Both the position numbers and the translations under genes were made by a program. Source: a virus. Taken from it: a stretch of 53,361 nucleotides of DNA. The DNA lies in IMG/VR virus record IMGVR_UViG_3300027887_000002. One strand, written 5' to 3'. Positions 1 through 52,493 of this stretch are shown here, piece by piece (the stretch's first letter is position 1; each line of letters begins with the position of its first letter). A model generated the notes under the pieces. The model had not been told where the DNA came from, made no database searches, and worked only from the letters and a program-made list of their open reading frames with translations.

Positions 1-99
1 TCGTAAAATGAAAATCCTGGGCATGACAATTGAGACAAAAGTGACATTGGGACAGGTTGTGTCGGTAGTAATCTTTGTACTGGGTATTACATACCTGGC
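1..99. repeat. terminal overlap copy 1 (identical to 53263-53361)
   Basis: Bases 1-99 (tcgtaaaatgaaaatcctggg...atacctggc) recur exactly at the 3' end of the window. This implies a closed unit of about 53,262 bp. Confidence 0.95.
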
Positions 100-3265: not shown

Positions 3266-4857
3266 TGGACTACAAGACCATCCTCGTCGACATTCAGAGC
3301 TATTACTCCACCCGGAAAATGAACATCCTGAAGCTCTGGGATTTCTATATGGGGGACAACCAGAGATTCTATATTGGGAAGTTCAAAGGCGAGGACCCTA
3401 ACGACTTCACTGAGAGGGTCGGGAACGCCAGCGTAGAAAATCATTGTGCCAAGACCTGTGACACCATCGTCGGATATCTCTACGGGAATCCGGAGAGCTC
3501 TGGTAGAGTCAAGGTGACCATCCGGAACAGGAAAGACAAGAAGATCAACGAGGAGGCTATGGAGTTTCTCTCTGAAAACGTCTGGCGACACAATGCCATT
3601 GACGCATTCAGGGTAAACGTGGGTCTGATGAGTTCTATTACCGGGATAGGGGTGGTCTTTAAGGTCTTTGTTGACTCCAGGACCTCACTTCCTTTTGGCG
3701 TCTTTGCTACGGCTGAGGAAAAGAAGGAATTCGGTACGATCAGGTACGATCTATGGGAATCTGCTGACACGATCGCTGTTCCACTGGTAGATTCTCAGGG
3801 AAATGCGCATTCCGGAGTCCTAGGGGCTATCGTGCGGATCACCCAGCCGGATGCCAAGAGACTTATGGAGTCTCCGGTAGGACGGGTGGTAAACCTGATG
3901 AACACGAAGTATCGGGCAGATTATTTCGATTCCGAACAGTATGTCATAGCTGACGTCGACAGAAGTTCTATTCAGCAAGAGACCATCAAGTCTATTCCGA
4001 ATCCTTACAAGAGTCTCCATATCCCGTTTACCCTCTTCAGGAACTACGGGAATCCCATGGGTCTTGAGGGATATTCGGATATCGACCAGATGGTGAGCCT
4101 CCAGACGGATCTGAACGAGCTCTCTACTGACGATAAGACCTGCATAGACTACCACTCATTCCCACTTCTCAAACTTACAAAAGGGGCCAAACTTCCACCC
4201 AACTTTGTGCGAAAAGCAAATTCGGCATTGGAGATGGACGGGGACCAGGATGCGGACTATTTGACTTGGGACAATGTCTTGGAGGCTTCCCAGAAGAAAC
4301 AGGACTCAATCCGCAAGCAGATGACTGTAGTGTCGGGTGTCTCTCAGCTCTCGCGCGGAAACGCTGATAGTGTTGGACAGGTCAAGGGAGCTACAGCCCT
4401 CAAGACACTCTTCCAGGCTGACATCCTCGAAATCGGGCTAAAAATCCCATTCTTCCGTACCGCAGAGGAAAGACTTGCCGAGTCGACACTCAAGATGTGG
4501 GAAATGGAGACCGGAACCACTTTCGGAGATGTCTACGCGGAATGTGAATTCCCGGCAGATTTCATCGGAATCGACAAACTGTTGGCCGCTCAGACGGATC
4601 AGATCGAAGTAACGTCCGGAATCGCCTCTATTCGCGAAAAGATTGCGGCGAGACATCCCGATATCACTTCAGAAGCAGAACTCGACGCTCTCGTACAGTT
4701 GGTATATGACGAGGCCGCAGAGATGGCCGAGGCTAAGGCCGGACCACAACTTGCGGTTGCCAAGATGCAACAGGATACCATGATAAAGACCACCGAAATG
4801 AACGCTAGTGCAAAACCGCAGAACCCGGCTCAAAAGAGCGCAGAACAAAACAAGTGA
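3262..4857 (+). CDS. portal protein
   Basis: 531 aa. ATG overlaps the terL stop (ATGA). The N-terminal LWDFYMGDNQ pattern resembles SPP1 gp6-type portals. Position is between terminase and scaffold. Confidence 0.7.
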   Translation: MMDYKTILVDIQSYYSTRKMNILKLWDFYMGDNQRFYIGKFKGEDPNDFTERVGNASVENHCAKTCDTIVGYLYGNPESSGRVKVTIRNRKDKKINEEAMEFLSENVWRHNAIDAFRVNVGLMSSITGIGVVFKVFVDSRTSLPFGVFATAEEKKEFGTIRYDLWESADTIAVPLVDSQGNAHSGVLGAIVRITQPDAKRLMESPVGRVVNLMNTKYRADYFDSEQYVIADVDRSSIQQETIKSIPNPYKSLHIPFTLFRNYGNPMGLEGYSDIDQMVSLQTDLNELSTDDKTCIDYHSFPLLKLTKGAKLPPNFVRKANSALEMDGDQDADYLTWDNVLEASQKKQDSIRKQMTVVSGVSQLSRGNADSVGQVKGATALKTLFQADILEIGLKIPFFRTAEERLAESTLKMWEMETGTTFGDVYAECEFPADFIGIDKLLAAQTDQIEVTSGIASIREKIAARHPDITSEAELDALVQLVYDEAAEMAEAKAGPQLAVAKMQQDTMIKTTEMNASAKPQNPAQKSAEQNK

Positions 4858-4889
4858 CACGATTTGCGCACGACTAGCCGATATATTAC
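4855..4889 (+). promoter_or_regulatory. late promoter-like tripartite motif, copy A (TGACAC-N7-GCACGAC-N7-TATATTAC)
   Basis: TGACAC 4855-4860 contains the portal stop codon. GCACGAC is at 4868-4874 and TATATT at 4882-4887. Spacing is the same as in copies at 11392 and 52459. It sits 23 nt upstream of the csp ATG. Confidence 0.55.
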
Positions 4890-4911
4890 CAGCCACTGAA
4901 AAGGATTTTCC

Positions 4912-5184
4912 ATGAGTCAGGAAGTCGCAGGGACATGCAAATGGTTTGACGAGGCTAAGGGCTACGGATTCCTTACCTCGGATTCGGTTATTGATGAAAA
5001 CGGTGTAAGAAAAGACATCTTCATACACTATAAACACATCGTCGCACCCGGCTACCGGAAGCTTGTGCGCGGTGAACTGGTAACATTTAAGCCCGTGAAG
5101 ACCGATAAGGGAGTCATGGCGACGGAAGTAAAAACTGGTGATAAACCACAAGAAGGGGTAATTAGTCATGCCGAAATTCGGTGA
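4912..5184 (+). CDS. cold-shock domain protein (CspA family)
   Basis: GTCKWFDEAKGYGFL (RNP1-like KGYGF) and DIFIHY (RNP2-like). Core size about 70 aa plus a short C-terminal tail. Confidence 0.9.
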   Translation: MSQEVAGTCKWFDEAKGYGFLTSDSVIDENGVRKDIFIHYKHIVAPGYRKLVRGELVTFKPVKTDKGVMATEVKTGDKPQEGVISHAEIR

Positions 5185-5806
5185 CGCAGAAGTATCTGAA
5201 GAAACAATGCTTGATTATTTCCGTTCTCGCGGAAAGCGTGTTGTAACGGAAGAGGACTACGAGAAGAAAGCCTCCGCCGCAAATGACCTTGCCAAGCTTC
5301 GCAATCTGAGCGGGGACAATCGCTCGATGGACGAACTTGCCGGAGTGATAAAAGGTCAAAAAGATCTTGAAGGAAAAGTCGCCGAGAAAGACGCGGCGCT
5401 AGCCAAGTTGACGAAAGAAGTAAAGATCAACCACGTAAATACTTACGTGAAAGCGGCTACGGGGGCCCTGGGCGTGAAGATTGCCGACCAGTTCCTGAGC
5501 CCCCTGTTGAATGAGCTGTACGACATCGACCCAGCAGTTGTGGGTAAAGAAACTTACGACGCCAAGGTGAAAGAAGTTGTCGCCAAGGCAAACGAGGTGC
5601 AGATCAAGACCCTTACCGAACTTGGGTTCGCCCCCGGTAGTGGTCCTGTGACACCTTCGTTTGGTAGTGGAGGCCGTGTGCCGGAGGGTGATACTGGTAA
5701 TGCTATGAACGATATGGCTAAACTTTTACAAAATACCGCCGCCTCCAATAAGGGTCCGGCCATAGGGCCGATAGTTCCCGACTGGATGCGACAGGCAAAG
5801 CAGTAA
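5168..5806 (+). CDS. scaffolding protein (putative)
   Basis: 212 aa, strongly charged and helical (KDLEGKVAEKDAALAKLTKEVK). Located between the portal and capsid genes. Confidence 0.55.
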   Translation: MPKFGDAEVSEETMLDYFRSRGKRVVTEEDYEKKASAANDLAKLRNLSGDNRSMDELAGVIKGQKDLEGKVAEKDAALAKLTKEVKINHVNTYVKAATGALGVKIADQFLSPLLNELYDIDPAVVGKETYDAKVKEVVAKANEVQIKTLTELGFAPGSGPVTPSFGSGGRVPEGDTGNAMNDMAKLLQNTAASNKGPAIGPIVPDWMRQAKQ

Positions 5807-5829
5807 ACCTTCCGAAAAGAGAATAAACA

Positions 5830-6786
5830 ATGGCCTTCCCGTTTGATGGAGGTTATGGCGACGCTTTTGCGGTAAACAAATCGCAAATGGCGGGTCAGAA
5901 CCAAGTTCTGACACAGTGGAGCGGAGAAGTTCTTCGCCTCACGCAGGATTCACTTGTATTCCCCCGGTTCTTTGACCTTGCGCCTCCTGGCATCACGATG
6001 GGACTAGGCAAGGGAGACACCTGGCGCGCACCTATTTTCCTCTGGAATGAGACTACGGCGGCTACCACGGCGCTGACAAGCGGCACCACTATTCCCCTCA
6101 TTACACAGGCAACATTGAACATCTCGGGTACCATCGACGAGTATGGTCGTGGTATCGCCGCAGAGAATGTTCTTGAATACTATGTGAAGTTCGGTGTGCA
6201 GGGCGAACTTCTCCAGACTTTGGCCAACAACAGGGCCCTTGTTCTGAATGAACTCTGCCGTGGAATCATCCACAACACCAAGCACGTTGCAATCCTTGGG
6301 ACCAATGGTACGATTTATCGGCAACTTGGAGCGGCTTCCGCCACCCTTGCCAATGGTACCATCACGACCACGCAAGTCAACCAGCTCTACGACTCGCTGA
6401 AGGCGGCTAGGGTTCCTCGGTGGGGCAACGGGCTCTACGTCTGGATCGGGAATGCGGCACAACTGCGTCCCCTGAAGGACTCTGGTGTGTTCCAGAACTA
6501 TTCGCTGTACAATGCTCCGATGGCGGGTTATGTGTATCAGACCATCGGCAACTTCGGCGGGTTCACGTTCATCGAAACCGAGGAAGGCATGAATGCGACG
6601 ACCTCGTACATTCTTGCCCCCAACGTAGCGGCTCAGGCTTATGCCAAACCCATCAGCCTGTACTACTACCCCGATTTCAACTCGGATGCCGGACGGTTGA
6701 ACGTGTTCAAGTGGCACATGCTGGCTGGGTTCGCCCCCATCTTGCGTGATTATGGAACTCGTGCGATTCGTCTCATCACGACCTAA
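5830..6786 (+). CDS. major capsid protein (putative)
   Basis: 318 aa ORF immediately after the scaffold gene and followed by a GC hairpin. Assigned from order and size only. Confidence 0.65.
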   Translation: MAFPFDGGYGDAFAVNKSQMAGQNQVLTQWSGEVLRLTQDSLVFPRFFDLAPPGITMGLGKGDTWRAPIFLWNETTAATTALTSGTTIPLITQATLNISGTIDEYGRGIAAENVLEYYVKFGVQGELLQTLANNRALVLNELCRGIIHNTKHVAILGTNGTIYRQLGAASATLANGTITTTQVNQLYDSLKAARVPRWGNGLYVWIGNAAQLRPLKDSGVFQNYSLYNAPMAGYVYQTIGNFGGFTFIETEEGMNATTSYILAPNVAAQAYAKPISLYYYPDFNSDAGRLNVFKWHMLAGFAPILRDYGTRAIRLITT

Positions 6787-6806
6787 ATTGAAGTAAGTCA
6801 ACGTAC

Positions 6807-6841
6807 GGGGGCGGGGTGGGTATATCCTATCTCGCGCCCCC
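6807..6841 (+). terminator. GC-rich stem-loop after the capsid gene (possible attenuator; no U-tract)
   Basis: GGGGGCG (6807-6813) pairs with CGCCCCC (6835-6841) around a 21-nt loop. It lies 20 nt after the capsid stop and before the first glycosyltransferase ATG. Confidence 0.3.
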
Positions 6842-6866
6842 TGCGTTGCTAATACGGGAATTACAT

Positions 6867-7484
6867 ATGAAAATCTCACTCGTGTGCGTTTCAGATTGCC
6901 GGAATATGGCTAATCTGGAGCGCATGGTTGTTTCTGCTCGCCCCATCATCTCTGACGCTGTTCTGGTCGCCCAGACCAAAGACGCGAATACTTTTCGCGA
7001 AGCGTCAAAGCTATTTGATTTCTCCATCCAAACCCTCCCAAAGGGAAACGCTGACCCCGACAGAGACTACGCCTATTCGTTAGCCTCTGGAGATTGGATT
7101 CTCTCTCTCGACGACGACGAATATCTCACCGACGAATGCAAAGACTATATCGGCCGCATCGTTCATTCTAAGGCTGACGTCGTATGGTTCGACTTCAAGA
7201 ATCTGGTCGATAAAGTTGACATCAAGGATATTCTCGGTCCCGACCCACATCCCAGGCTCTGGAGGAAAATCCCCGGATTGATTTCCTGGCCTCCGCAGGC
7301 GCATACATTCCCGCAGATTGCCTCCCCTAAACAGGTGTTTACCCGCACACAGATAGTTCACGACAGGGAGTACAAAGACCTCGAAGAGCGTCATAAGATA
7401 AGGGGTGCGTACATTGATCCCCAGATGCAAGAGGTTGAACAGAGATTTTTGGCGGCGGTTAAACAGAGACTAGGGAAACAATGA
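6867..7484 (+). CDS. glycosyltransferase family 2-like (GT-A)
   Basis: MKISLVCVSDC start and a DxD-type motif in SLDDDEYL. I chose ATG 6867 (downstream of the hairpin) over the ORF-track start at 6816. Confidence 0.6.
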   Translation: MKISLVCVSDCRNMANLERMVVSARPIISDAVLVAQTKDANTFREASKLFDFSIQTLPKGNADPDRDYAYSLASGDWILSLDDDEYLTDECKDYIGRIVHSKADVVWFDFKNLVDKVDIKDILGPDPHPRLWRKIPGLISWPPQAHTFPQIASPKQVFTRTQIVHDREYKDLEERHKIRGAYIDPQMQEVEQRFLAAVKQRLGKQ

Positions 7485-8659
7485 AAAAAGCAATCCTTTT
7501 TCGTATGGGAGGAATGGGTGATATCCTCATCTGTACGATAGTTCCTAAACAACTCCGCAAGATGGGGTACGATGTCGTTGACGCCTGTTTTGGCAGTCCC
7601 TCTTGTAACGTGAAAGAACTTCTAAAGGGAGTAAACCCCTTTGACAACGTATTTGAGTATACTCGTTCCTTTACAGGAGTTGACTGTTACAAAACGCCTG
7701 AAGGGGATGACGCCTCGATCGAACTCCTCAAACAGGGTTACGATCTGGTCGTTGATTACAAATACTCTATTGAGCTCAACAGCCACTACAAGGACTTGGC
7801 TAATGCTCCCGGAAGAGAATGGTTCGTTAGTCAGAACTCAAACTTCCAGAATTGGGCAGACGTCATGCTTTCGTGGGCTGGGGTTGACCCAACGACGGTA
7901 TCCGACGAGGAGAAGATCCCCCTTTACGAGGCGACTCCTGATGAGCTTGACTGGGCGGCGAAAGTAGCTGGTGCCTCGGCCACAAGTAAAGAAATCATCA
8001 TATCTATCCAGACCAATGCGTCGTCTTTGGTCAGGACGTTCTATTATCCATTAAGACTTCCGGACGCCATTAAGATGGCGTACCCTGGAAAACCATTCAC
8101 ATTTCTCCTGTTTGACGGAGTCAACTGGTTAAAGATCAAAGATGACAAACGATTTCCGATTCTCTTTCCCGAAGGACTCGATAAAATTAGATACAGTGCC
8201 GCCCTTCTGGGTGTTAGTGACCTGTTTATTGGTGCTGATAGTGGGTTCTCCCATATTGCTGAAACACTTCATCGTAAGTCTATCACGATCTATACGACGG
8301 TTCCTTCGTGGACACGGATGAAGTATTATAAATACTCCACGGCTATTGAGCCAATCGGACATGAGTTCAACGGTGTAAAGTGCCATCCGTGTTTTGTTCT
8401 CGACCGTTGGTGCCCCAGGATTCGGGAGAAAGCCCTCGCCGAAAGGACCGAAAGGGAGGTCAAGCTTGCGGAATGCGTCATTGCTAACCGGAACCCGGTA
8501 GAGGTAGCGGAGGAGTTCGGTACCACTCCACAAGGCATCTTAATGGAGGCAGAGATGGCCGCCAAGCGCATCGAAGCCCTCTTTGAGAGGCAGAGTCCAT
8601 GTTCTGAGACGATCACCCCTGAACGCATCGTAGACAAGGTTAGGAGTATTTTAGGATGA
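7481..8659 (+). CDS. glycosyltransferase family 9-like (heptosyltransferase fold)
   Basis: N-terminal ILFRMGGMGDILICT and C-terminal GADSGFSHIAE resemble ADP-heptose:LPS heptosyltransferase motifs. ATGA-coupled to the upstream gene. Confidence 0.6.
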   Translation: MKKAILFRMGGMGDILICTIVPKQLRKMGYDVVDACFGSPSCNVKELLKGVNPFDNVFEYTRSFTGVDCYKTPEGDDASIELLKQGYDLVVDYKYSIELNSHYKDLANAPGREWFVSQNSNFQNWADVMLSWAGVDPTTVSDEEKIPLYEATPDELDWAAKVAGASATSKEIIISIQTNASSLVRTFYYPLRLPDAIKMAYPGKPFTFLLFDGVNWLKIKDDKRFPILFPEGLDKIRYSAALLGVSDLFIGADSGFSHIAETLHRKSITIYTTVPSWTRMKYYKYSTAIEPIGHEFNGVKCHPCFVLDRWCPRIREKALAERTEREVKLAECVIANRNPVEVAEEFGTTPQGILMEAEMAAKRIEALFERQSPCSETITPERIVDKVRSILG

Positions 8660-9582
8660 AAGTAGTTCTTGACACAACCCACCTAGGTGCAATCGGCGGC
8701 GGCGAGAACTATCTTATGCGGCTCTCACTGGCGCTGAGGGAAGTCTCAGATTTCTATGTAATGGAGAACTTCCACCCGTATTTCCCAGAGTTTAACGGCT
8801 TTGGAGACACATTCGAGGTATACAATGGATTATTCAAACCTGACCTTTACATCCATTCTTCTTACAGTTCTGTCGGGCGTCCTATTGGGCGTAGGAATGC
8901 TTCTGTTGTCTTTTTCCCTAAGAAGAACCTTGTCCCAAACAATTTCGATAGCGTTGTGGCTATCTGCGATTATTCATCTCGTTATATATTGGAATACTGG
9001 GGCAGAGAGGCTTTTGTACTGGAGCCTTGTATCCAGCCTTCTCTTTTTACTCCAGGCAGAAAAGAGGACTTAATCATATCCGTTGGGCATTTTTTCAAAG
9101 AAGCCGATGGCCACAGTAAAAATCAGGACGTACTCATTGAAGCCTTCCAAGACCTCCCGGGATACAAGTTCGAGCTCTACGGGAATGCTCAAACCCTAGA
9201 AGACAAAGTCTACGTACAGTATTGCAAAGAGAAGGCCAGAGGTAAAAATGTCGAGATTCTACTCAACAAACCCCACAAGGATATCAGAAATGCGTTCGCT
9301 CGTGCCAAATATCTTTGGCATGGAAATGGCTACGGTAGATCCGACCCAGCGCAGACCGAGCATTTCGGTATCATCGTTCTGGAGGCGATTGCGAGCGGCT
9401 GTATACCTATTGTCTATAACTCGGGTGGAGCTAGTGAAATTGCTCCATATACTTGGGAAAAGCCCGGAGAGCTCTCAACTGCAGTTAGAACTGGCGGCGA
9501 AGTACCTGGCCTACGAAAACAATTCACTGTCCCCTACTTCAACAAAAAAGTAGCAAAATGGTTAAAAGATGTCTCAATGTAG
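8656..9582 (+). CDS. glycosyltransferase, GT-B fold (family 4 / GT1-type)
   Basis: EHFGIIVLEAIASGCIPIV (E-x7-E region) and a HGNGYG segment. ATGA-coupled. Confidence 0.75.
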   Translation: MKVVLDTTHLGAIGGGENYLMRLSLALREVSDFYVMENFHPYFPEFNGFGDTFEVYNGLFKPDLYIHSSYSSVGRPIGRRNASVVFFPKKNLVPNNFDSVVAICDYSSRYILEYWGREAFVLEPCIQPSLFTPGRKEDLIISVGHFFKEADGHSKNQDVLIEAFQDLPGYKFELYGNAQTLEDKVYVQYCKEKARGKNVEILLNKPHKDIRNAFARAKYLWHGNGYGRSDPAQTEHFGIIVLEAIASGCIPIVYNSGGASEIAPYTWEKPGELSTAVRTGGEVPGLRKQFTVPYFNKKVAKWLKDVSM

Positions 9583-10034
9583 GTTGTGGTAACGACTACC
9601 ACCTATCCGATAAGACCGTAGAGTGGACCAATATCGACATATCCACTACTTGTCACACAGATTTGGTGTGCCATGTCAAAGACATTGACAAGCACTTCGG
9701 AGAAGGATACTTTGATCAATTGGAAGCCGTTCAAGTCTTTGAGCACTTGGAGCGGGACGATTACATACAAACCCTACGCGCCCTCTACTGGGTCTGCGCT
9801 AATGGAGCCACTTGGAACATCGTGGTCCCCCATGGATTCTCAGATAACTTTATCACAGATCCCACCCATAAGCTTCCCTTTTCCCCGCGATCTTTTGACT
9901 TCTTTATTGATGGCAAACAGCTCAGGGAAAATGGAGTGATCTACGGCTGGGAAGACATCAAGCTTGAAGAAGTGAGAACTCCGGAGATTGACGGGAATAG
10001 TTCAATCCATTTTCTTCTTAAAGTGGTAAAATAG
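9558..10034 (+). CDS. class I SAM-dependent methyltransferase
   Basis: CLNVGCGNDY glycine-rich motif I and LEAVQVFEHL (Methyltransf_11-like). Confidence 0.65.
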   Translation: MVKRCLNVGCGNDYHLSDKTVEWTNIDISTTCHTDLVCHVKDIDKHFGEGYFDQLEAVQVFEHLERDDYIQTLRALYWVCANGATWNIVVPHGFSDNFITDPTHKLPFSPRSFDFFIDGKQLRENGVIYGWEDIKLEEVRTPEIDGNSSIHFLLKVVK

Positions 10035-10657
10035 TGGATAAAAAGGGTATTTATGCGATGTTCCCGGATGATTACTGGGAACATTTTTATAAAGAGTTTG
10101 GACATGATTTCGTGGACGCGCATTATGCGAGAACGGCGGTCTACGAGAGTAAGTTTTTCTCTGATCTGCAGGGAAAGAGAGTGATTGAGGCTGGTGGCTA
10201 CCCGGGACTTCTTATAGCGGCGTATATACTAAGTGGGATCGACGTAGTATGCGCCTTCGATCATCCAGACTACAGACCCGCGTATTATCTGTCTTGGATG
10301 AAGGAAATGGGGATACCATCCATAGAACACAACTTCAACTCTGGATATCCCGAAGGACCGATCCCGGAGGCTGACGTCATGGTAATGAGTGACGTCCTTC
10401 TTCATAATGGTGGATTTCCAACGAAGTTCATAGAGTGGGCTCTTAGTCACGTAAAAGAGATCTATCTCATCAACTACGAGGGGAGTGGCCCAGTATTAGA
10501 ATCTCGTGAATTTGATCTAAAAAAGGGCTTTAGGGTCCCAAACTCTACGGCAATCATAGCGCACATGCACACCCTAGGGGCTTCTTGTTCGCGCAGGGAC
10601 TCGTCAGCCGATAGATCTTTGCTCGTATTCAAACCAGGAGAACCATGCGTACCTTAA
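10034..10657 (+). CDS. putative methyltransferase-like Rossmann protein
   Basis: GKRVIEAGGYPGLL glycine loop and DVMVMSDVLLH. The GTG start overlaps the upstream TAG. Assignment is weak. Confidence 0.4.
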   Translation: MDKKGIYAMFPDDYWEHFYKEFGHDFVDAHYARTAVYESKFFSDLQGKRVIEAGGYPGLLIAAYILSGIDVVCAFDHPDYRPAYYLSWMKEMGIPSIEHNFNSGYPEGPIPEADVMVMSDVLLHNGGFPTKFIEWALSHVKEIYLINYEGSGPVLESREFDLKKGFRVPNSTAIIAHMHTLGASCSRRDSSADRSLLVFKPGEPCVP

Positions 10658-11394
10658 TTATTGTCCCACATTACGGCTCAATCGACCATTTGCGAAAACT
10701 TTTCCCATCACTTGGTCTAACCGACAAAGATGTTGACGCTTGCACGGAGAGGGTGTCCATCTTCACCACCTTCTATGGAGCGGTTCTCGTTGTGAACAAC
10801 AACTTGGAGAACTGGGGATTCACCAAAGCCTGTAATATTGGGATGCGGTACGGATTGACGTCTGATTACGACATTCTCTGGCTTCTCAATAATGATACGG
10901 ATGTCCCGGATATACATAAGGCTCTCACTGAACTCGAAAAGGAGTTCGTAGACAACCCTAAAACTGGCGTGGTTGGGTTCAAGATATGTTCCATGGAAGA
11001 CCCGGATTTCATCCATCACGGGGGAACGGGTCAATGTATTCCCACTGGGGTTCACAAGGTTGGATACGTGTCTCAGAAACAGTACGATAAACGTACATTC
11101 GAGCACTGGGTTACGGGGGCTTCTATGGCTATTTCTGCGGGATGTCTTCTGGCTACCGGGGAGATGGACGAGAAGATGGAGAACTACTATTCGGACTCAG
11201 ACTTCTGCTACCGGGCCAGATACTGTGACTACAATGTCGTTTACCTTCCTATCCCAATTCTGCATAAAATAGGTCAATCTGCCAAACCATCCGAAGAGCA
11301 GACCCGGGTGATGCAGAAGGACTTCCTCGTTTTCCAGGCTAAATGGTTGTCTTCTAGGGCCTTTATGGAGTTGTCGGCGGAAGCGTTTGCCTGA
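10645..11394 (+). CDS. glycosyltransferase family 2 (GT-A)
   Basis: LIIVPHYGS start, VVNNN..GFTKACNIG and LLNNDTDV motifs typical of GT2 enzymes. Confidence 0.7.
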   Translation: MRTLIIVPHYGSIDHLRKLFPSLGLTDKDVDACTERVSIFTTFYGAVLVVNNNLENWGFTKACNIGMRYGLTSDYDILWLLNNDTDVPDIHKALTELEKEFVDNPKTGVVGFKICSMEDPDFIHHGGTGQCIPTGVHKVGYVSQKQYDKRTFEHWVTGASMAISAGCLLATGEMDEKMENYYSDSDFCYRARYCDYNVVYLPIPILHKIGQSAKPSEEQTRVMQKDFLVFQAKWLSSRAFMELSAEAFA

Positions 11395-11426
11395 CATCCT
11401 TTAGGCACGACTGCCGGGTATATTAC
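11392..11426 (+). promoter_or_regulatory. late promoter-like tripartite motif, copy B (TGACAT-N7-GCACGAC-N7-TATATTAC)
   Basis: TGACAT 11392-11397 contains the GT2 stop codon. GCACGAC is at 11405-11411 and TATATT at 11419-11424. The next ATG (11435) is 9 nt downstream. Confidence 0.55.
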
Positions 11427-11434
11427 GCCCTGCG

Positions 11435-12226
11435 ATGACAACCTACATCTCCGAAACCGACCTGAACTCTGTCCTCGAAGGGTTTGTCCCTGCTTATTAT
11501 GGGACAGTCTTTTATGGGGACGGGACTGTCACGATTGGCACTCAGTATCCAGCCGATCATGCGCTTTCGTTCCAAAAAGTGAACGAAATGCTTTACGGTA
11601 TAGGACATCTCAAGGCGGTTCCAGTCGGGACCCAGAGGGATGGAAACTACCCTTATGCCGTACGGATGATGCAAGCCAACTTCATGGTGTACCAGAGGCT
11701 TCTTTCCAAACATTATGGAGAGGTCTCCGGGGGAGAAGTTCCTCCCTGGATAAACGTCTACCGTACCCGAGCTATGGAGACGTTGTCTGATATCAAGGGG
11801 CAGGACATCATCTTCCTCGACGATGTGAGTCAGGGCGAACAGGGGATCGGCGTCGGCTCTTGGACTCGGAAGAACGGTACGGTGAACCTGTTCACCAACT
11901 GGGAAAGTGGTACCTATCAGGGTGTCGACTGGGCCCGGGTGTACGTCGTAGAGATTGACGCTACGACCACCGGAACCGCGATCGGCAAAGCAAACTTCAA
12001 GTGGAGTCGCGATGGCGGTGTCTCTTGGGTTGGCACACTCGGAACGACCGGAACAAACTGGAATTACCTTGAGAACGGTCTCTGTGTTCGCTGGGAGCCC
12101 GTCCTTTCGGGGACGTTGGTTTCTGATGTGTGTGGGTTGGGCGACCGATTCGAAGTGACTTGTGTGCCACAGAATATCCCAGTAAAGAGTGGGAATATCA
12201 GATTTGTTACCTGGCGGCGTGGATAA
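11435..12226 (+). CDS. virion structural protein (head-tail adaptor-like N-terminus plus beta-rich C-terminal domain)
   Basis: First gene after late motif B. The N-terminal YISETDLNSVLEGF resembles connector/adaptor proteins. Assignment is positional. Confidence 0.4.
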   Translation: MTTYISETDLNSVLEGFVPAYYGTVFYGDGTVTIGTQYPADHALSFQKVNEMLYGIGHLKAVPVGTQRDGNYPYAVRMMQANFMVYQRLLSKHYGEVSGGEVPPWINVYRTRAMETLSDIKGQDIIFLDDVSQGEQGIGVGSWTRKNGTVNLFTNWESGTYQGVDWARVYVVEIDATTTGTAIGKANFKWSRDGGVSWVGTLGTTGTNWNYLENGLCVRWEPVLSGTLVSDVCGLGDRFEVTCVPQNIPVKSGNIRFVTWRRG

Positions 12227-12696
12227 TGGCGAACTGGGAGACTGTCTCCAAGAATGTTGTGAATGCCCTTCGGGACGACTCTGTCCTCACCTCCTATGCG
12301 AAGGTGGAGTTCATAGATTCGATCTCGGACTACGTCGAGAAGAGTGTAACTCAGACTGTGAACGACGGCTATCTCATCCTCGTATCAACTCCAGAAGGAG
12401 ACATGGTGAGGACGGAGAGCCTTCTTAATGGTATTAAGAGGAAGTTCTTTCTGCTGTCCCTGGCTATTATCGTCAAAAACGAACCAACCAGCAAGGGAAG
12501 GCTCATTGGTGAACGTGGTAAGGGTATTTTCGAAGTACAGGAGGATGTTGAACGCATCCTGGAACACTCAAATCTCTCCGGCACCGTAGACAGTAAGGCC
12601 GGGACGAATTTCGATTCAGGGTGGACGAAGATCCCAGTAGATAGCAGAGCAATCACTATCTACACTACCGTCTACACCGCCGTCAAAACAGAATGA
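12226..12696 (+). CDS. head-tail joining / neck protein (putative)
   Basis: ATG 12226 overlaps the upstream TAA (TAATG). I chose the internal start MANWETVSKN over the ORF-track start at 12130. Confidence 0.45.
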   Translation: MANWETVSKNVVNALRDDSVLTSYAKVEFIDSISDYVEKSVTQTVNDGYLILVSTPEGDMVRTESLLNGIKRKFFLLSLAIIVKNEPTSKGRLIGERGKGIFEVQEDVERILEHSNLSGTVDSKAGTNFDSGWTKIPVDSRAITIYTTVYTAVKTE

Positions 12697-12706
12697 AGGA
12701 CACACA

Positions 12707-13801
12707 ATGAGCAAGGGTTGGGAAAGCTCCATCAGGGTGCAGGAAAACTATCTGGGCTTTGGCTCCACGATTGGAAGCTTGGTCAGGATGGGCAACTTCC
12801 TGTACGTCGATAGTGAATCTATTGCAAGGAATCCGACGATTCGGGAACGCGATAACAAACTCGTGCCTACCCGACTGGTCCCAGCCGAAACAATGGGTCT
12901 GGATCAGTACGCACCGGGAGGCCAAGTCACTTGGCAACCCCGATCTGACGATTCGCTCTCAATGCTTATGGCCTTCTTCCAGACGGCCACACATATGTTT
13001 GGCGGGACTACCCCCGCTTTGAACGCCACTGGGACTTGGCAGTTTGCCTTTGTCCCCAAAAGCCTTCTCTGGACCGGGAAACAGTATTACGGAACAGGAA
13101 ACGGTTACGGCACCGGAACCTCGGTATACTGCGTAAATGCGGATCTTTGCTTCGGTCAGGGTATGACGACCACGCCTAACGGTATCCGTTTTGAGCGTGG
13201 TATTGTCACGAAACTTACGATCCAGCAAGATCCCGCCGCAGACCTTCAGTTTGTTGCGGATATGAAGTTCCTCCAACACGAAGATCAGGCGACGTATACG
13301 TCAGCCTTCAGCTTCCTGCCTGGGGCGGCTGGCTCGCTCTCTTCGAAAAAGCAGTTCGTTGATTGGAATGGTACCTTGACGGTTGGGGGAAACTCGTATA
13401 ATATCGAGAAGCTTTCCCTTGAGGCCGACAATCAGAACGTCGATCGCAGGAAACTGGGTCAGAAGGGCTTTGCGAACTTCCCGTTTGGGCGAGCTATCGT
13501 CAACGGTCAGTTCGATCTTGAGCTCGAAGATCTCACATTGTTCACTCCTGCCGCCTCTGGTGGCACGTTACAGTGTACATGGAGAACTTCTGACGGTGAT
13601 TGGCTCCAGGTGTTCTGCCCGAATATCTATTACAAGAATCCGGACCCGAAGGTTAATGATGCTGGACCGATCATCCTGACGGTGCCTTTTAGGGCGTATC
13701 CAAGTGCTCAGGGACGTAACGACGCTGTTCTCGTCAACGTCTGTCCACTTGGCTCGTACGCTTTGGCTGGGACTGCGGTTCCCCAGCTTATCTGGAATTA
13801 A
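12707..13801 (+). CDS. major tail (tube) protein (putative)
   Basis: 364 aa ORF directly upstream of the chaperone / frameshift / tape-measure set. Confidence 0.5.
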   Translation: MSKGWESSIRVQENYLGFGSTIGSLVRMGNFLYVDSESIARNPTIRERDNKLVPTRLVPAETMGLDQYAPGGQVTWQPRSDDSLSMLMAFFQTATHMFGGTTPALNATGTWQFAFVPKSLLWTGKQYYGTGNGYGTGTSVYCVNADLCFGQGMTTTPNGIRFERGIVTKLTIQQDPAADLQFVADMKFLQHEDQATYTSAFSFLPGAAGSLSSKKQFVDWNGTLTVGGNSYNIEKLSLEADNQNVDRRKLGQKGFANFPFGRAIVNGQFDLELEDLTLFTPAASGGTLQCTWRTSDGDWLQVFCPNIYYKNPDPKVNDAGPIILTVPFRAYPSAQGRNDAVLVNVCPLGSYALAGTAVPQLIWN

Positions 13802-13818
13802 CAAATACCAGGAGTACC

Positions 13819-14169
13819 ATGCTTAAGAAAGCTAGTAACAAAGTCGAAGTTCTGGATCTGGATGGCACAAAGATCCACGCCATTCGTGCGGACAAGGGAA
13901 TCTACGACGACTACGCCGATGTTCTTTTCGATAGGAACGACAAGGGCGAACTCGTTGTGAAGAGTGGCCGGGCAATCCAGGAAGTGTACGCCAAGTGCGT
14001 CAAGAAGATCGAAAACTGCATGATCGACAATGTCGTCGTTGCAGAAATAAACGACACCCAAAAGATTGTCGAATTCTTGACGCACCTTGACGACCCAATC
14101 ACCGGGAAGAAGATTGATAATTGGCTTTTGGGTCTTTCTACCCTTGAGCCCATTGAAATAAAAAATTAG
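13819..14169 (+). CDS. tail assembly chaperone (G-like, zero-frame product)
   Basis: 116 aa with an AGGAG RBS. It ends 1 nt after an A_AAA_AAT slippery heptamer and sits two genes upstream of the tape measure. Confidence 0.65.
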   Translation: MLKKASNKVEVLDLDGTKIHAIRADKGIYDDYADVLFDRNDKGELVVKSGRAIQEVYAKCVKKIENCMIDNVVVAEINDTQKIVEFLTHLDDPITGKKIDNWLLGLSTLEPIEIKN

Positions 14170-14723
14170 CCTGGGCGACAGAGTGTGATCTTCTGGTCTC
14201 TGACGCCCCCAGAGATACCTATAATTGCCAGAAGTGTATTGCCCTTGGGAAGCAGAATAAGGTTAAAGGCCGCGAATGTCTGCTTGATAGGGACTTGAGG
14301 TGGGCGCCTTTACCCTATATGTACAGGGTGCGTGGCAAGGAGCTTCTTGGTGGTACAATTTATTCAGAGAGCGACCTTTTCAAAGTCTTAAGGGACGCTC
14401 AGGCGCTCTACGAGACTGAGGAAGTACAAGTGGCTCTGCGTCGTATAGGGAAGGGTGTATGCCCAAAATCGTTCCCCATAACGAAGCAGAGCCATTACTT
14501 TTTAGAGTTGTTCCGTCTAACCCATGGTGGCGAGTATGGTCTTGAGTTGATGAGACTCCCTCTTTCCGGGGGAGTCCTTGACCAGCCAGCCATATTCTAC
14601 CAAGCGTCTGATATCATTCGTAATGTAAAGTCAAGATTCATCAAAGCAAAACTGGATAAGCCTAGTGAGCGTCAAGATAATCTGCAGGGGTCAGACCGTC
14701 CTACAGGATATATTGGGAGGTAA
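14157..14723 (+). CDS. -1 frame extension of the tail chaperone (T-like part; fusion product 13819..14723)
   Basis: This frame has no stop from 14157. Its only in-frame start is a TTG at 14295. The frame overlaps the slippery site, matching the G/GT arrangement. Confidence 0.55.
   Translation, partial: NKKLAWATECDLLVSDAPRDTYNCQKCIALGKQNKVKGRECLLDRDLRWAPLPYMYRVRGKELLGGTIYSESDLFKVLRDAQALYETEEVQVALRRIGKGVCPKSFPITKQSHYFLELFRLTHGGEYGLELMRLPLSGGVLDQPAIFYQASDIIRNVKSRFIKAKLDKPSERQDNLQGSDRPTGYIGR
14160..14166 (+). promoter_or_regulatory. -1 programmed ribosomal frameshift slippery heptamer A_AAA_AAT
   Basis: Zero-frame codons are ATA AAA AAT TAG. The -1 frame is open from 14157 to 14723. Confidence 0.6.
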
Positions 14724-15333
14724 GAAGAGTCTTCTCAGGATCATCGACGAGATGGCTGTCCCTAGTCCCAAGCTCATGCGGACTATCGGGGAAGAGATGG
14801 TTCTCGGCTACCAAGGTGGACGCAGACTCCTTCTAGGAGATGTGAGCTTTGGACCCAAGGGTGGGATGACTTTCTCTGGAAGAAATGGTAGATATTCGCG
14901 CGGTATCATGCGGCGCGTATCTCCAGATGGCAAACCTTACCCAATCTTGGCAAACGGTAAATATCATGCCCAGTCCACCTTAGATCTGAAGGAACGCAAC
15001 AGCTCCCGATTCGCCGCAGATCAATATGTACTTCGTGATACAGATGACATGATGCAGAAGTTCACCTATCAGATAAGTGCGACCAAGAGAAACTGTTCCG
15101 CAAGAGCTGGGTTCTTCGGGCATCCAGATTTGAATGCGAAAAGTATTCGCCTTGAGAATGGCGGAAACTTTAGGAGTAAAGATCTATCGAATAAGAAAAA
15201 GGGCGGGAATACGGTGATGAGGACAATCCACCTCACCCCTAGACCCCACAGAGCGATGCAACCTGAAACCGAAATGGTTATTCGTGGTCTACTGAGGCGT
15301 TGGGCCCAAAGATTCGCAGGTAAAAGTTTATGA
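14665..15333 (+). CDS. tail-associated protein of unknown function
   Basis: ORF with its stop overlapping the tape-measure ATG (ATGA). Start is uncertain (GTG 14665 or ATG 14752). There is a faint resemblance to virion-morphogenesis/tail-completion proteins. Confidence 0.45.
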   Translation: MSVKIICRGQTVLQDILGGKKSLLRIIDEMAVPSPKLMRTIGEEMVLGYQGGRRLLLGDVSFGPKGGMTFSGRNGRYSRGIMRRVSPDGKPYPILANGKYHAQSTLDLKERNSSRFAADQYVLRDTDDMMQKFTYQISATKRNCSARAGFFGHPDLNAKSIRLENGGNFRSKDLSNKKKGGNTVMRTIHLTPRPHRAMQPETEMVIRGLLRRWAQRFAGKSL

Positions 15334-39694: not shown

Positions 39695-39695
39695 T

Positions 39696-41154: not shown

Positions 41155-41170
41155 TATGTGTTTGCCCCTT

Positions 41171-44372: not shown

Positions 44373-44382
44373 CGTTTTTTAC

Positions 44383-52303: not shown

Positions 52304-52458
52304 AGTAGAATGTTTTAGTTAAGAGAAAAAGAAGCCCCCCAGAAGAAATACTCTTCATTATTTATTTGCTCGAACCAAGCGTCTTGTGAACGCAAGTCTG
52401 GCGCAGAGCGCAGTAAGATCATAATACACACTAAGCGATAGTTGTACCCCGAGTCATC

Positions 52459-52493
52459 TGACACCCCTTGGGCACGACCGTCCGGTATAATAC
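52459..52493 (+). promoter_or_regulatory. late promoter-like tripartite motif, copy C (TGACAC-N7-GCACGAC-N7-TATAATAC)
   Basis: TGACAC 52459-52464, GCACGAC 52472-52478, TATAAT 52486-52491. It lies 31 nt upstream of ATG 52525 in the divergent intergenic region. Confidence 0.55.

What the first reader, a model, noticed from the sequence alone, without database searches (positions are those of the whole stretch)
6867..11394. Six-gene glycosyltransferase/methyltransferase cassette embedded in the capsid operon
Immediately after the major capsid gene and a GC hairpin (6807-6841) come six co-directional, mostly ATGA-coupled genes. In order they are GT2-like, GT9 (heptosyltransferase-like), GT4/GT-B, a SAM methyltransferase, a second Rossmann/MTase-like protein, and GT2.

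The cassette sits between late motif A (4855) and late motif B (11392). It would therefore be transcribed with scaffold and capsid, at the time virions are built.

Four distinct GT folds plus methylation suggest synthesis of a methylated oligosaccharide. Its position suggests virion (capsid or tail) glycosylation rather than host serotype conversion. Virion glycosylation by capsid-adjacent GTs has been reported for some mycobacteriophages, as I recall. A GT9 + GT4 + two GT2 + two MTase set is considerably more elaborate than that.
Basis: partly seen in the sequence, partly recalled or inferred. Interest (0 to 1): 0.72.

Follow-up and report, generated by a model that had tools for sequence, protein, structure and literature searches.

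The report
Sugar-adding gene cassette beside phage capsid gene
An uncultured bacteriophage carries, right after its capsid gene, six enzymes that probably build a methylated, heptose-containing sugar chain on its own particle proteins; the layout recurs in about 20 distantly related metagenomic phages, but the target is only inferred.

Summary
Six overlapping + strand genes (6867-11394) follow the major capsid gene and a strong hairpin. They encode GT2, GT9, GT4, a SAM methyltransferase, a second methyltransferase-like Rossmann protein, and GT2.

The window is a complete circular 53.3-kb phage genome with no close cultured relative. In 29 related metagenomic loci the order capsid -> GT2 -> GT9 -> (GT4, methyltransferases) -> GT2 -> neck protein -> tail tube holds down to 23-30% identity. 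It also holds in a phage with an unrelated head module. The GT core is as conserved as the structural proteins.

In three phages, phage-specific promoter-like repeats bracket the unit [cold-shock protein, scaffold, capsid, hairpin, cassette]. One relative encodes both halves of HldE (ADP-heptose synthesis) in its head module. All six proteins are soluble. No integrase, flippase or DNA hydroxymethylation gene was found.

Best reading: a late, cytoplasmic virion-protein glycosylation pathway. It is analogous to mycobacteriophage Corndog genes 35-38 but not homologous to them. The target (capsid or tail tube) and the glycan are inferred, not shown.

The GT9 enzyme carries four invariant cysteines around a non-basic LuxR-like helical insert, which is unexplained.

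Verdict: a new variant of a known kind.

The parts
4854..4889 (+). Promoter-like motif copy A (cTGACAy..TT.GGCACGACT-N6-TATATTAC), between portal and the cold-shock gene. Proposed start of the transcription unit that contains the cassette.
   Evidence: Exact core match. Relatives L006 and L009 have their own 3-copy repeats at the same three slots.
4912..5184 (+). Cold-shock-domain protein (90 aa), first gene of the unit. Possibly an RNA chaperone or antiterminator for the hairpin after the capsid gene (inference).
   Evidence: PF00313, E 2.4e-16. RNP motifs KGYGFL and DIFIHY are present. Conserved at this slot in relatives.
5168..5806 (+). Putative scaffolding protein.
   Evidence: Assigned by position and by 31% identity to the equivalent gene in relatives. 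No family hit.
5830..6786 (+). Major capsid protein, a candidate glycan acceptor. It has T/S-rich segments at about residues 72-90 and a hypervariable T/S/G-rich loop at about residues 155-185.
   Evidence: phrog_1357 major head protein, 2.9e-10. Alignment of 9 homologues.
6793..6855 (+). Stem-loop after the capsid stop codon (G+C-rich core 6807-6840). Probably a leaky terminator, attenuator or mRNA 3' stabiliser that sets a high capsid-to-enzyme expression ratio.
   Evidence: -38 kcal/mol, z = -4.4. A strong stem-loop sits at the same place in 7 relatives, with U-tracts in L007 and L011.
6867..7484 (+). g1: small soluble GT2 (GT-A, DDDE motif). Proposed initiating protein glycosyltransferase. 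Part of the conserved core.
   Evidence: Homologues carry PF00535. Model pLDDT 93.3. Best structural matches are the SunS/ThuS peptide S-glycosyltransferases, 6.8e-8, TM-score 0.64 normalised to the query. Best PDB sequence hit is GmaR, E 0.034.
7481..8659 (+). g2: GT9 (heptosyltransferase-like GT-B). It has four invariant cysteines (C301, C304, C311, C374) bracketing a ~60-aa LuxR/GerE-like helical insert. Part of the conserved core.
   Evidence: PF01075. Invariant D14 and D253-S-G-x-x-H258. Model pLDDT 92.5. Foldseek matches 3tov, TibC, WaaF and WaaC at about 1e-8. NarL C-terminal domain, 1.4e-4. The insert is not basic.
8656..9582 (+). g3: GT4-type GT-B glycosyltransferase (EX7E motif EHFGIIVLE). 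Accessory: absent from some relatives.
   Evidence: PF00534, 2.7e-15. Presence and absence across loci.
9558..10034 (+). g4: class I SAM methyltransferase (GCGND motif I). Proposed sugar O-methyltransferase. Accessory.
   Evidence: phrog_6636, 1e-8. PF08241 below threshold, 0.0033. Profile matches PDB 3dli methyltransferase, 4.2e-5.
10034..10657 (+). g5: fast-evolving Rossmann protein that resembles a SAM methyltransferase (motif I VIEAGGYPG, motif IV-like DVMVMSDVLLH). Accessory.
   Evidence: Profile matches METTL21C, 0.0026, plus several weaker methyltransferases. Only 2 database homologues by word search. 33-44% identity to homologues in relatives.
10645..11394 (+). g6: GT2 (rhamnosyltransferase-like GT-A, NNDTD motif). 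Part of the conserved core. Its type is found fused to the GT9 domain in one relative (P0109).
   Evidence: TIGR01556, 4.5e-9. Homologues hit PF13641 and PF00535. Fusion protein P0109.
11391..11426 (+). Promoter-like motif copy B, directly after the last cassette gene. Proposed start of the neck/tail unit.
   Evidence: Equivalent repeats in L006 (15917) and L009 (16506).
11435..12226 (+). d1: conserved 263-aa protein that follows the cassette in every locus reaching that far, either directly or after inserted genes. Probably a neck or head-completion protein, with an Asp-box-like SRDGGVSW. An alternative candidate acceptor.
   Evidence: Synteny. Alignment. No PDB, Pfam or PHROG match.
12707..13801 (+). 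Tail tube protein. An alternative candidate acceptor, since the tube is glycosylated in mycobacteriophages.
   Evidence: PF18906, 2.2e-10. Co-inherited with the cassette even in L007, where the head module differs.
52458..52493 (+). Promoter-like motif copy C (2 mismatches in the core), at the start of the late region.

Best explanation
The cassette is a phage-encoded, late-expressed, cytoplasmic pathway that glycosylates the phage's own virion proteins.

Proposed sequence of events:
1. A late promoter-like element at 4854-4889 drives one transcript: cold-shock protein, scaffold, capsid, cassette.
2. The strong hairpin after the capsid gene lets only part of the transcription through, or stabilises the upstream mRNA. 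Capsid is therefore made in bulk and the enzymes in catalytic amounts.
3. g1, a small GT-A enzyme whose closest structures are peptide glycosyltransferases, puts the first sugar on Ser/Thr (or Cys) of an assembled or assembling virion protein.
4. g2 (GT9) adds heptose from host ADP-heptose.
5. g3 (GT4) and g6 (GT2, rhamnosyltransferase-like) extend the chain.
6. g4 and g5 O-methylate sugars.

The acceptor is most likely the major capsid protein. The tail tube and the neck protein d1 are alternatives.

What is shown: the gene identities, their coupling, and the conserved position and unit structure. What is inferred: the order of reactions, the sugars, the acceptor and the biological benefit (shielding, stability or adhesion).
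For: 1. Enzyme classes are confirmed.

2. In all 29 related loci that reach far enough, the order is capsid -> g1 -> g2 -> ... -> g6 -> d1 -> tube, down to 23-30% identity.

3. g1, g2 and g6 are as conserved as TerL, portal, capsid and tube, or more so. In L013, for example, they are 39/34/31% identical against 28/26/26/24%. That indicates long co-inheritance with the virion module rather than a mobile moron.

4. L007 has an unrelated head module (PF04860 portal, S78 protease, PF05065 capsid) yet keeps capsid -> g1 -> g2 -> GT2 -> g6 -> d1 -> tube.

5. In the window, L006 and L009, phage-specific promoter-like repeats sit at the same three slots and bracket [CSD ... cassette]. A strong hairpin follows the capsid gene in every relative tested.

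6. All six proteins lack membrane segments. No flippase, polymerase or ligase is present, which fits a cytoplasmic acceptor such as assembling virions.

7. Relative L013 encodes heptose-7-P kinase (TIGR02198, 2.9e-68) and heptose-1-P adenylyltransferase (TIGR02199, 1.9e-26) between terminase and portal. It also encodes an FkbM methyltransferase.

8. P0109 fuses the GT9 domain to a g6-like GT2.

9. g1's best structural neighbours are the peptide glycosyltransferases SunS and ThuS. Its best PDB sequence hit is the flagellin glycosyltransferase GmaR.

10. There is an experimental precedent. Corndog genes 35-38 (O-methyltransferase plus 3 GTs) lie between portal and capsid genes and modify capsid and tail tube (PMC11600133, PMC12363180).
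Against: - No direct evidence of any glycan on any protein.
- GT9, GT4, GT2 and sugar methyltransferases are equally typical of LPS and polysaccharide synthesis.
- The SunS/GmaR resemblance of g1 is only marginally better than its resemblance to teichoic-acid GT2s (6.8e-8 against about 2-4e-6; GmaR E 0.034).
- g2 is equally close to LPS heptosyltransferases and to TibC.
- In L007 the cassette travels with the neck/tail genes, not with the capsid gene, so the capsid may not be the acceptor.
- The host is unknown, so availability of ADP-heptose is assumed.
- The window itself has no sugar-nucleotide genes.
- The hairpin lacks a U-tract, so its role as an attenuator is a guess.
Confidence: 0.6

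Rival explanations
1. Host envelope remodelling. The enzymes modify host LPS core or O-antigen, capsule or another cell-surface glycan during infection. Possible purposes are blocking superinfection or stopping progeny from sticking to debris.
For: GT9 is the LPS heptosyltransferase family. g2 matches WaaF and WaaC structurally at about 1e-8 to 1e-7 and by profile. GT4, GT2 and O-methyltransferases are common in O-antigen clusters. Weak hits to RfbT-like, FkbM and rhamnosyl O-methyltransferases occur in relatives.
Against: - There are no membrane-associated components of Gtr, Wzx, Wzy or WaaL type, and no TM segments.
- No integrase or lysogeny module was found in a complete genome.
- Late expression leaves little time for export.
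- Acceptor-specific surface-modifying genes normally turn over quickly. These are conserved in one fixed slot of the virion module across phages only 25-30% identical, which surely infect different hosts.
Confidence: 0.17
2. DNA hypermodification. The GTs glycosylate hydroxymethylated bases of phage DNA before packaging. Heptose on 5hmC has been reported for other phage clusters.
For: A phage cluster with a cytidylyltransferase plus a GT-B enzyme makes mono- and di-heptosyl-5hmC (bioRxiv 10.1101/2023.12.21.572611). g2 carries a LuxR/GerE-like helix-turn-helix insert. Late-expressed DNA modification is not impossible.
Against: - No C5-methyltransferase, TET/5mYOX or ThyA-like hydroxymethylase was found in any ORF of 100 aa or more scanned in this complete genome.
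- The cassette lies in the head module, not beside replication genes.
- g2's top structural matches are GT9 enzymes, and T4 beta-GT is not among the top 50.
- The HTH-like insert has mean net charge +0.4, the 'recognition helix' +0.2 and the whole protein -4. That is unlike a DNA-binding domain.
Confidence: 0.06
3. Some other glycoconjugate. The cassette makes a soluble or secreted glycoside or oligosaccharide, or glycosylates a non-virion (host or phage) protein, and its place in the head operon is only a convenient late-expression slot.
For: The slot between capsid and neck genes is plastic. Relatives insert small ORFs, an AP2-domain gene, extra methyltransferases, a SPASM-like protein and lectin-like proteins there.
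Against: The core g1+g2+g6 is retained at this slot in every relative examined and evolves at the pace of the structural genes. That is not expected for an optional auxiliary function.
Confidence: 0.12

Closest known systems
Mycobacteriophage virion glycosylation (Corndog genes 35-38; Che8 gp110; Freeman et al. 2023, as cited in PMC11600133, PMC12363180 and PMC11256854)
   Same: Both are phage-encoded clusters of an O-methyltransferase plus several tandem glycosyltransferases. In Corndog the cluster sits inside the head-gene module, between portal gp34 and protease gp39 / capsid gp41. The enzymes are soluble and presumably use host sugar nucleotides. The demonstrated targets there are capsid and tail tube.
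   Different: There is no detectable sequence similarity to g1-g6 (blastp and hmmsearch E > 0.1). The slot differs: after the capsid gene here, before it in Corndog, and at the genome end in Che8. The mycobacteriophage sets are not described as GT9 or heptose-linked in the papers read here. The hosts are Actinobacteria there and unknown here. Glycans are shown by experiment there and only inferred here.
Bacterial autotransporter heptosyltransferases (BAHT: TibC, AAH; PMC4358343)
   Same: Both have a GT9-like GT-B catalytic domain. TibC is among the top Foldseek hits (1.8e-8). Both have four conserved cysteines in an insertion in the C-lobe just before the last helix. BAHTs are cytoplasmic enzymes that O-heptosylate a protein with ADP-heptose.
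   Different: g2 lacks TibC's N-terminal beta-barrel (residues 1-97). Its cysteine spacing is C-x2-C-x6-C-x62-C, against C-x2-C-x15-C-x11-C in TibC, and it encloses a 60-aa four-helix LuxR-like insert. g2 is no closer to TibC than to WaaF, WaaC or 3tov.
LPS core heptosyltransferases WaaC/WaaF (GT9)
   Same: g2 passes the Pfam PF01075 gathering score. It has the N-terminal G-D motif and the C-lobe D-S-G-x-x-H motif and a GT-B fold.
   Different: Identity is only about 12-15%. g2 has an extra Cys4 plus helical insert and sits in a phage head operon. It scores far below the equivalog cut-offs (TIGR02193: 25.7 bits against 185).
Glycocin/flagellin GT2 protein glycosyltransferases (SunS, ThuS, GmaR)
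   Same: These are g1's best structural (SunS/ThuS) and sequence (GmaR) matches. All are GT-A enzymes with a DxD motif that act on peptide or protein acceptors in the cytoplasm.
   Different: g1 is only 205 aa and lacks their C-terminal substrate-binding or TPR domains. Identity is 13-15%, and the margin over teichoic-acid GT2s is small.
Chlorovirus PBCV-1 capsid glycosylation (e.g. A064R, with two GT domains plus a methyltransferase domain; from my own knowledge and the reviews PMC9614988 and PMC5408694, listed but not read in detail)
   Same: Virus-encoded cytoplasmic GTs plus a sugar methyltransferase decorate the major capsid protein independently of host secretory machinery.
   Different: That is a eukaryotic giant virus with an unrelated capsid fold and unrelated enzymes, and its genes are not arranged as a capsid-adjacent operon.

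Membership tests
Phage virion glycosylation systems (mycobacteriophage Corndog/Che8 type) | Phage-encoded cluster of glycosyltransferase(s) with an O-methyltransferase | tested here: met
   Four GTs plus 1-2 methyltransferases.
Phage virion glycosylation systems (mycobacteriophage Corndog/Che8 type) | Homology to the characterised enzymes (Corndog gp35-38) | tested here: not met
   blastp and family-profile hmmsearch against Corndog gp34-38 and gp41 all give E > 0.1. Che8 gp110 was not compared.
Phage virion glycosylation systems (mycobacteriophage Corndog/Che8 type) | Glycans covalently attached to capsid or tail tube proteins | not testable with these tools
   Needs MS or glycostaining of virions.
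CAZy GT9 / Pfam PF01075 heptosyltransferase family (g2) | Profile match above the curated threshold | tested here: met
   29.3 bits against a cut-off of 22. 43 of 43 family members match, best 1.2e-14.
CAZy GT9 / Pfam PF01075 heptosyltransferase family (g2) | GT-B fold with conserved N-terminal Asp and the C-lobe D-S/T-G-x-x-H nucleotide-sugar motif | tested here: met
   Invariant G13-D14 and D253, S254, G255, H258. Aligned to WaaF DSGLMHVAAAL. Top Foldseek hits are all GT9.
CAZy GT9 / Pfam PF01075 heptosyltransferase family (g2) | Use of ADP-heptose as donor | not testable with these tools
   Indirect support only: relative L013 encodes both HldE halves in its head module.
BAHT protein heptosyltransferases (TibC/AAH) | N-terminal beta-barrel domain preceding the catalytic domain (PMC4358343) | tested here: not met
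   The g2 model starts directly with Rossmann strand 3-9 and helix 12-27, which carry the G-D motif.
BAHT protein heptosyltransferases (TibC/AAH) | Iron-finger Cys4 (TibC C339, C342, C358, C370) inserted in the C-lobe | tested here: inconclusive
   g2 has four invariant cysteines at a topologically similar place. Their spacing differs (301, 304, 311, 374) and they enclose a helical insert. TibC was not aligned residue by residue.
BAHT protein heptosyltransferases (TibC/AAH) | Closer to TibC than to LPS heptosyltransferases | tested here: not met
   3tov 1.4e-8, TibC 1.8e-8, WaaF 2.2e-8. No TibC hit by sequence profile.
GT2 peptide/protein glycosyltransferases (SunS/ThuS/GmaR) (g1) | GT-A fold with a DxD motif; these enzymes as nearest structures | tested here: met
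   Invariant D82, D84, E85 with D83 nearly invariant. SunS/ThuS rank 1-6, with TM-score 0.59-0.66 normalised to the query. GmaR is the best PDB sequence hit, E 0.034. The margin over other GT2s is small.
GT2 peptide/protein glycosylttransferases (SunS/ThuS/GmaR) (g1) | C-terminal substrate-recognition (TPR/helical) domain | tested here: not met
   g1 is 205 aa, with only two short C-terminal helices. The targets are 333-421 aa.
Phage DNA glycosylation gene clusters (5hmC/5hmU-dependent) | C5-methyltransferase plus 5mYOX/TET, or a ThyA-like hydroxymethylase, in the genome | tested here: not met
   None found by Pfam or PHROGs in the ORFs of 100 aa or more scanned in a complete genome. Very divergent enzymes could be missed.
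Phage DNA glycosylation gene clusters (5hmC/5hmU-dependent) | GT resembling T4 beta-GT or the TarP/JGT-like DNA GTs, next to DNA-metabolism genes | tested here: not met
   g2's top hits are GT9. The cassette lies between capsid and neck genes.
Prophage serotype-conversion modules (Gtr type, O-acetylases) | Membrane-embedded components, linkage to integrase/att, expression in lysogeny | tested here: not met
   No TM segments. No integrase detected. The position is that of a late operon.
LuxR/GerE helix-turn-helix DNA-binding domain (insert in g2) | Profile match and a basic recognition helix | tested here: inconclusive
   The family profile matches the NarL C-terminal domain at 1.4e-4, plus many weaker LuxR-type chains. 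PF00196 is hit in only 4 of 43 members, best 9.7e-4, and not in g2 itself. The helix is not basic.

The most novel reading that the evidence does not exclude
This cassette defines a previously unrecognised, widespread virion glycosylation system in tailed phages that appear to lie outside the Actinobacteria-infecting phages (the hosts are not known). In it a new type of GT9 enzyme, with a Cys4 knuckle and a repurposed LuxR-like helical module, recognises the assembled capsid or tube lattice and O-heptosylates it. A methylated heptose-containing glycan coat would then be a core, vertically inherited part of virion morphogenesis, functionally replacing decoration proteins, rather than an accessory trait.
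Probability: 0.3. Interest if true: 0.8.

Novelty: new variant of a known kind. Interest (0 to 1): 0.62.

Why it matters
Self-glycosylation of phage particles has so far been shown by experiment essentially only in mycobacteriophages, where it blunts antibody recognition. The evidence here indicates that an unrelated set of enzymes has been built into the head module of a whole uncultured phage lineage: about 20 distinct genomes from sediment and freshwater-type metagenomes.

That would make virion glycosylation a recurrent, independently evolved strategy. It also gives concrete, testable candidates:
- a 205-aa GT2 and a GT9 with an unusual Cys4 plus helical insert, as possible new protein glycosyltransferases;
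- a possible heptosylated capsid.

Such enzymes could be useful for glyco-engineering phage or virus-like particles. The operon also offers a compact model of how expression of structural protein and enzyme is balanced: promoter, cold-shock protein, hairpin.

Tried and rejected
1. Looked for close or cultured relatives. Megablast of 4800-12300 against 50,697 phage records gave no match. tblastn with g1 and g2 gave no match. The capsid protein gave only a faint hit to Bacteroides phage BS162P1, which has no cassette.

2. Tried host assignment through genome contigs. The capsid query found nothing. The g2 profile found two MAG contigs (Gemmatimonadales, Heimdallarchaeota) that look like binned phage contigs, so I rejected them as host evidence. 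The M15 endolysin only says 'bacterium'.

3. Tested whether g2 is a BAHT. Single-sequence PDB search gave noise. Foldseek could not separate TibC from WaaC/WaaF. I tried to fetch tibC from ETEC H10407 to align the cysteines, but the region I guessed held only an unrelated disrupted GT9 pseudogene, and I did not pursue it.

4. I first took the 591-aa fusion P0109 for g1+g2. Comparison shows it is GT9 plus a g6-like GT2.

5. Considered the LuxR-like insert as evidence for a DNA substrate. I rejected this as the main reading because the insert and the enzyme are not basic and no base-hydroxymethylation genes exist.

6. The sigma-70 promoter and intrinsic-terminator scan of 1-16000 was not above shuffled expectation and did not flag the real repeated motif or the hairpin.

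7. A homologue search for g5 returned only two proteins, so no structure was predicted for it.

8. d1 gave no hit in PDB, Pfam, PHROGs or NCBIfam.

9. The Freeman et al. 2023 paper itself is not held. Its content is cited only through papers that summarise it.

Full report
**What is there**

The window is a complete, circularly closed phage assembly. Its first 99 nt equal its last 99 nt, giving 53,262 unique bp. The same contig is on record at JGI.

The left arm is a + strand late region:
- M15 endolysin, 243-743
- large terminase, 1616-3265
- SPP1-type portal, 3262-4857
- cold-shock-domain protein, 4912-5184
- putative scaffold, 5168-5806
- major capsid protein, 5830-6786
- the six genes of the finding
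- conserved protein d1, 11435-12226
- tail tube, 12707-13801
- tape measure, 15330-18641

The right arm, on the - strand, holds DnaB, ERF, a resolvase-like protein and an amidoligase cluster.

No cultured phage is similar at the DNA level. None has homologues of g1 or g2.

**The six genes**

All six ORFs are real and tightly coupled: two ATGA junctions, then overlaps of 25, 1 and 13 nt.

- **g1** (6867-7484) is a 205-aa GT-A enzyme. It has no Pfam hit of its own, but many of its 49 database homologues carry PF00535. The family has an invariant D-D-D-E type motif. The AlphaFold model (pLDDT 93.3) is closest to the glycocin S-glycosyltransferases SunS and ThuS (E 6.8e-8, TM-score 0.64 normalised to the query). 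AvpGT, TarS and SpsA come next. The best PDB sequence hit is the flagellin glycosyltransferase GmaR (E 0.034).
- **g2** (7481-8659) is GT9. PF01075 is above threshold and hits 43 of 43 family members. The N-terminal G-D and the D-S-G-x-x-H motif are invariant. The model has pLDDT 92.5. Foldseek's top hits are all GT9: 3tov, TibC, WaaF and WaaC at 1e-8 to 1e-7.
- **g3** (8656-9582) is GT4-type (PF00534, 2.7e-15).
- **g4** (9558-10034) is a SAM methyltransferase (phrog_6636, 1e-8; profile matches PDB 3dli at 4.2e-5).
- **g5** (10034-10657) evolves fast. Only two homologues were found by word search, and it is 33-44% identical to its homologues in relatives. It is methyltransferase-like only at profile level (METTL21C, 0.0026), with a recognisable motif I.
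- **g6** (10645-11394) is GT2 (TIGR01556 rhamnosyltransferase subfamily, 4.5e-9).

None of the six has a membrane-spanning segment.

**An unexpected feature of g2**

The family profile also matches LuxR/FixJ/NarL (GerE-type) helix-turn-helix domains over residues ~315-372. The NarL C-terminal domain scores 1.4e-4, with about fifteen weaker LuxR-type chains. GerE is hit in 4 of 43 members. JGI named two members 'CsgD family regulator'.

This four-helix insert is bracketed by four invariant cysteines: C301, C304, C311 and C374. It sits in the C-lobe before the final helix. That is topologically where TibC has its iron finger (Cys339/342/358/370, PMC4358343).

The insert is not basic. Mean net charge is +0.4, the 'recognition helix' is +0.2 and the whole protein is -4. 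I therefore read it as a protein-recognition or oligomerisation module rather than a DNA-binding one. This is unproven.

The full architecture is rare. Among 1.84 billion representatives, 12,301 match the GT9 part, only 86 reach E <= 1e-30, and about 45 are full length.

**Comparative evidence**

I collected 29 related loci using capsid, g1 and g2 queries in IMG/VR, JGI metagenomes, Logan/ENA assemblies and GTDB genomes. A tblastn synteny table shows that every locus reaching far enough has capsid -> g1 -> g2 -> (g3, g4, g5) -> g6 -> d1 -> tube.

This holds from 64% down to about 25% capsid identity. g1, g2 and g6 stay at 30-40% identity where TerL, portal, capsid and tube are at 22-33%.

- The core is g1+g2+g6, always followed by d1.
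- g3, g4 and g5 are accessory.
- Relatives add extra methyltransferases (L002, L006), further GT2s (L014), a SPASM-like protein (L012), small ORFs and an AP2 gene (L009), and ConA-like lectin-domain proteins just after the cassette (L006, L014).

Three further observations bear on function:
- L007 has an unrelated head module (PF04860 portal, S78 protease, PF05065 capsid) but the same capsid -> g1 -> g2 -> GT2 -> g6 -> d1 -> tube order.
- P0109 fuses GT9 to a g6-like GT2.
- L013 encodes both halves of HldE between terminase and portal, plus an FkbM methyltransferase. The halves are heptose-7-P kinase (2.9e-68) and heptose-1-P adenylyltransferase (1.9e-26). This is the best available hint that the GT9 enzyme uses ADP-heptose.

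**Transcription context**

L006 and L009 each have their own three-copy intergenic repeat at the same three slots: start of the late region, portal|CSD, and directly after g6. So [CSD, scaffold, capsid, hairpin, cassette] looks like one conserved unit.

A strong stem-loop follows the capsid stop codon in the window (-38 kcal/mol, z = -4.4) and in all seven relatives tested. L007 and L011 have U-tracts there. This is the usual way to give much capsid and little of what lies downstream.

A generic sigma-70 and terminator scan was uninformative.

**Interpretation**

The best explanation is a late, cytoplasmic virion-protein glycosylation pathway. It would build a methylated, probably heptose-containing oligosaccharide (confidence about 0.6).

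The acceptor is unresolved:
- The capsid gene is the invariable upstream neighbour and shares the transcription unit. The capsid protein has T/S-rich, partly hypervariable segments.
- In L007, however, the cassette stayed with d1 and the tube when the head module was exchanged. In mycobacteriophages both capsid and tube are glycosylated.

**Rivals**

- **Host envelope modification (about 0.17).** It fits the enzyme families. It does not fit the absence of membrane components and of lysogeny genes, or the structural-gene-like conservation.
- **DNA glycosylation (about 0.06).** It has a heptose precedent and the HTH-like insert in its favour. No hydroxymethylation enzymes were found, and the insert is not basic.
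- **Another glycoconjugate (about 0.12).** It cannot be excluded.

**Comparison with known systems**

The closest functional analogue is Corndog genes 35-38. This is an O-methyltransferase plus three GTs, lying between portal gp34 and protease gp39 / capsid gp41. They are reported to modify capsid and tail tube (PMC11600133, PMC12363180). Che8/F1 GTs lie near the genome's 3' end (PMC11256854).

I found no sequence similarity between Corndog gp35-38 and g1-g6. The two systems are therefore analogous and were recruited independently.

g2 is a GT9 member. It is not a BAHT by architecture, because it has no N-terminal beta-barrel and a different Cys4 module. g1 resembles peptide GT2s but lacks their substrate-binding domain.

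**Verdict**

This is a new variant of a known kind: phage self-glycosylation with non-homologous enzymes, a GT9/heptose component and a fixed place in the head-neck junction of an uncultured lineage. Interest is moderate to high, and the function remains an inference that simple co-expression and MS experiments could settle.

Noticed in passing
window 4912-5184 (+); same slot in L001, L003, L006, L009-L013, L018-L024: A cold-shock-domain protein (PF00313, 2.4e-16, with RNP1/RNP2 motifs) is encoded between portal and scaffold as the first gene after the late promoter-like motif, and is conserved there in relatives. Since bacterial Csp proteins can act as RNA chaperones or antiterminators (my own knowledge), it might control read-through of the hairpin after the capsid gene.
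   Followed up: partly
window 38915-45243 (-): An amidoligase cluster sits in the early region. It has a RimK-like ATP-grasp (phrog_2599 'S6 glutaminyl transferase', 1e-25; 44383-45243), two phiEco32-like COOH-NH2 ligases (41171-42856, 38915-39694), a class-II glutamine amidotransferase (40177-41154) and several unknown ORFs. It suggests a peptide or amide modification system of unknown target.
   Followed up: no
window 7481-8659, residues ~296-375 of g2: Four invariant cysteines (C301, C304, C311, C374) bracket a LuxR/GerE-like four-helix insert inside a GT9 glycosyltransferase. The insert is not basic. This domain combination was not found described in the papers searched.
   Followed up: partly
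window 1-99 and 53263-53361: An exact 99-bp terminal overlap, so the contig is a closed circular assembly of 53,262 bp. A Logan assembly holds a 53,292-bp contig that encodes an identical g5 protein (P0116).
   Followed up: yes
window 4854-4889, 11391-11426, 52458-52493 (+): A three-copy ~36-nt promoter-like motif (cTGACAy..TT.GGCACGACy-N6-TATAWTAC). Its TGACA-to-TATATT spacing is too long for a standard sigma-70 promoter. L006 and L009 have different three-copy repeats at the same slots. This may be a phage-specific late promoter or activator site.
   Followed up: partly
L013 933-2418 and 3961-4629: A distant relative encodes split HldE (heptose-1-P adenylyltransferase and heptose-7-P kinase) between terminase and portal. 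It also encodes an FkbM-family methyltransferase between portal and scaffold. These are sugar-nucleotide supply genes inside a head module.
   Followed up: partly
L006 16831-19086; L014 13038-14093: Proteins with a ConA-like lectin/glucanase domain (Laminin_G_3; 3.9e-7 and 2.7e-4) are encoded directly after the cassette in two relatives, but not in the window. They could be glycan-binding head or neck fibres.
   Followed up: no
L009 11006-11778 and 14209-14584; L006 13074-13390: Small ORFs and an AP2-domain gene are inserted between cassette genes in some relatives, so this slot tolerates insertions (possibly homing-endonuclease-like elements).
   Followed up: no
window 48004-49089 (+), within 48001-49000: A 361-aa ORF on the opposite strand to its neighbours lies in a low-GC island (GC 0.37 against 0.47 genome-wide, with strong positive AT and GC skew). 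It has no family hit and may be a recently acquired moron. A tRNA-Met lies nearby at 49561-49633 (-).
   Followed up: no
window 11435-12226 (+): d1 is a 263-aa protein found downstream of the cassette in every locus that reaches that far (directly after it in the window). It has an Asp-box-like SRDGGVSW motif in a C-terminal beta-rich part and matches nothing in PDB, Pfam, PHROGs or NCBIfam. It is much larger than typical siphophage adaptor proteins.
   Followed up: partly
L017 (E. coli H10407 NC_017633.1 2251535-2257668): While looking for tibC I saw a GT9 gene broken into three pseudogene pieces by IS3 and IS1 insertions, next to an inverse-autotransporter gene. It is unrelated to this finding.
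   Followed up: no
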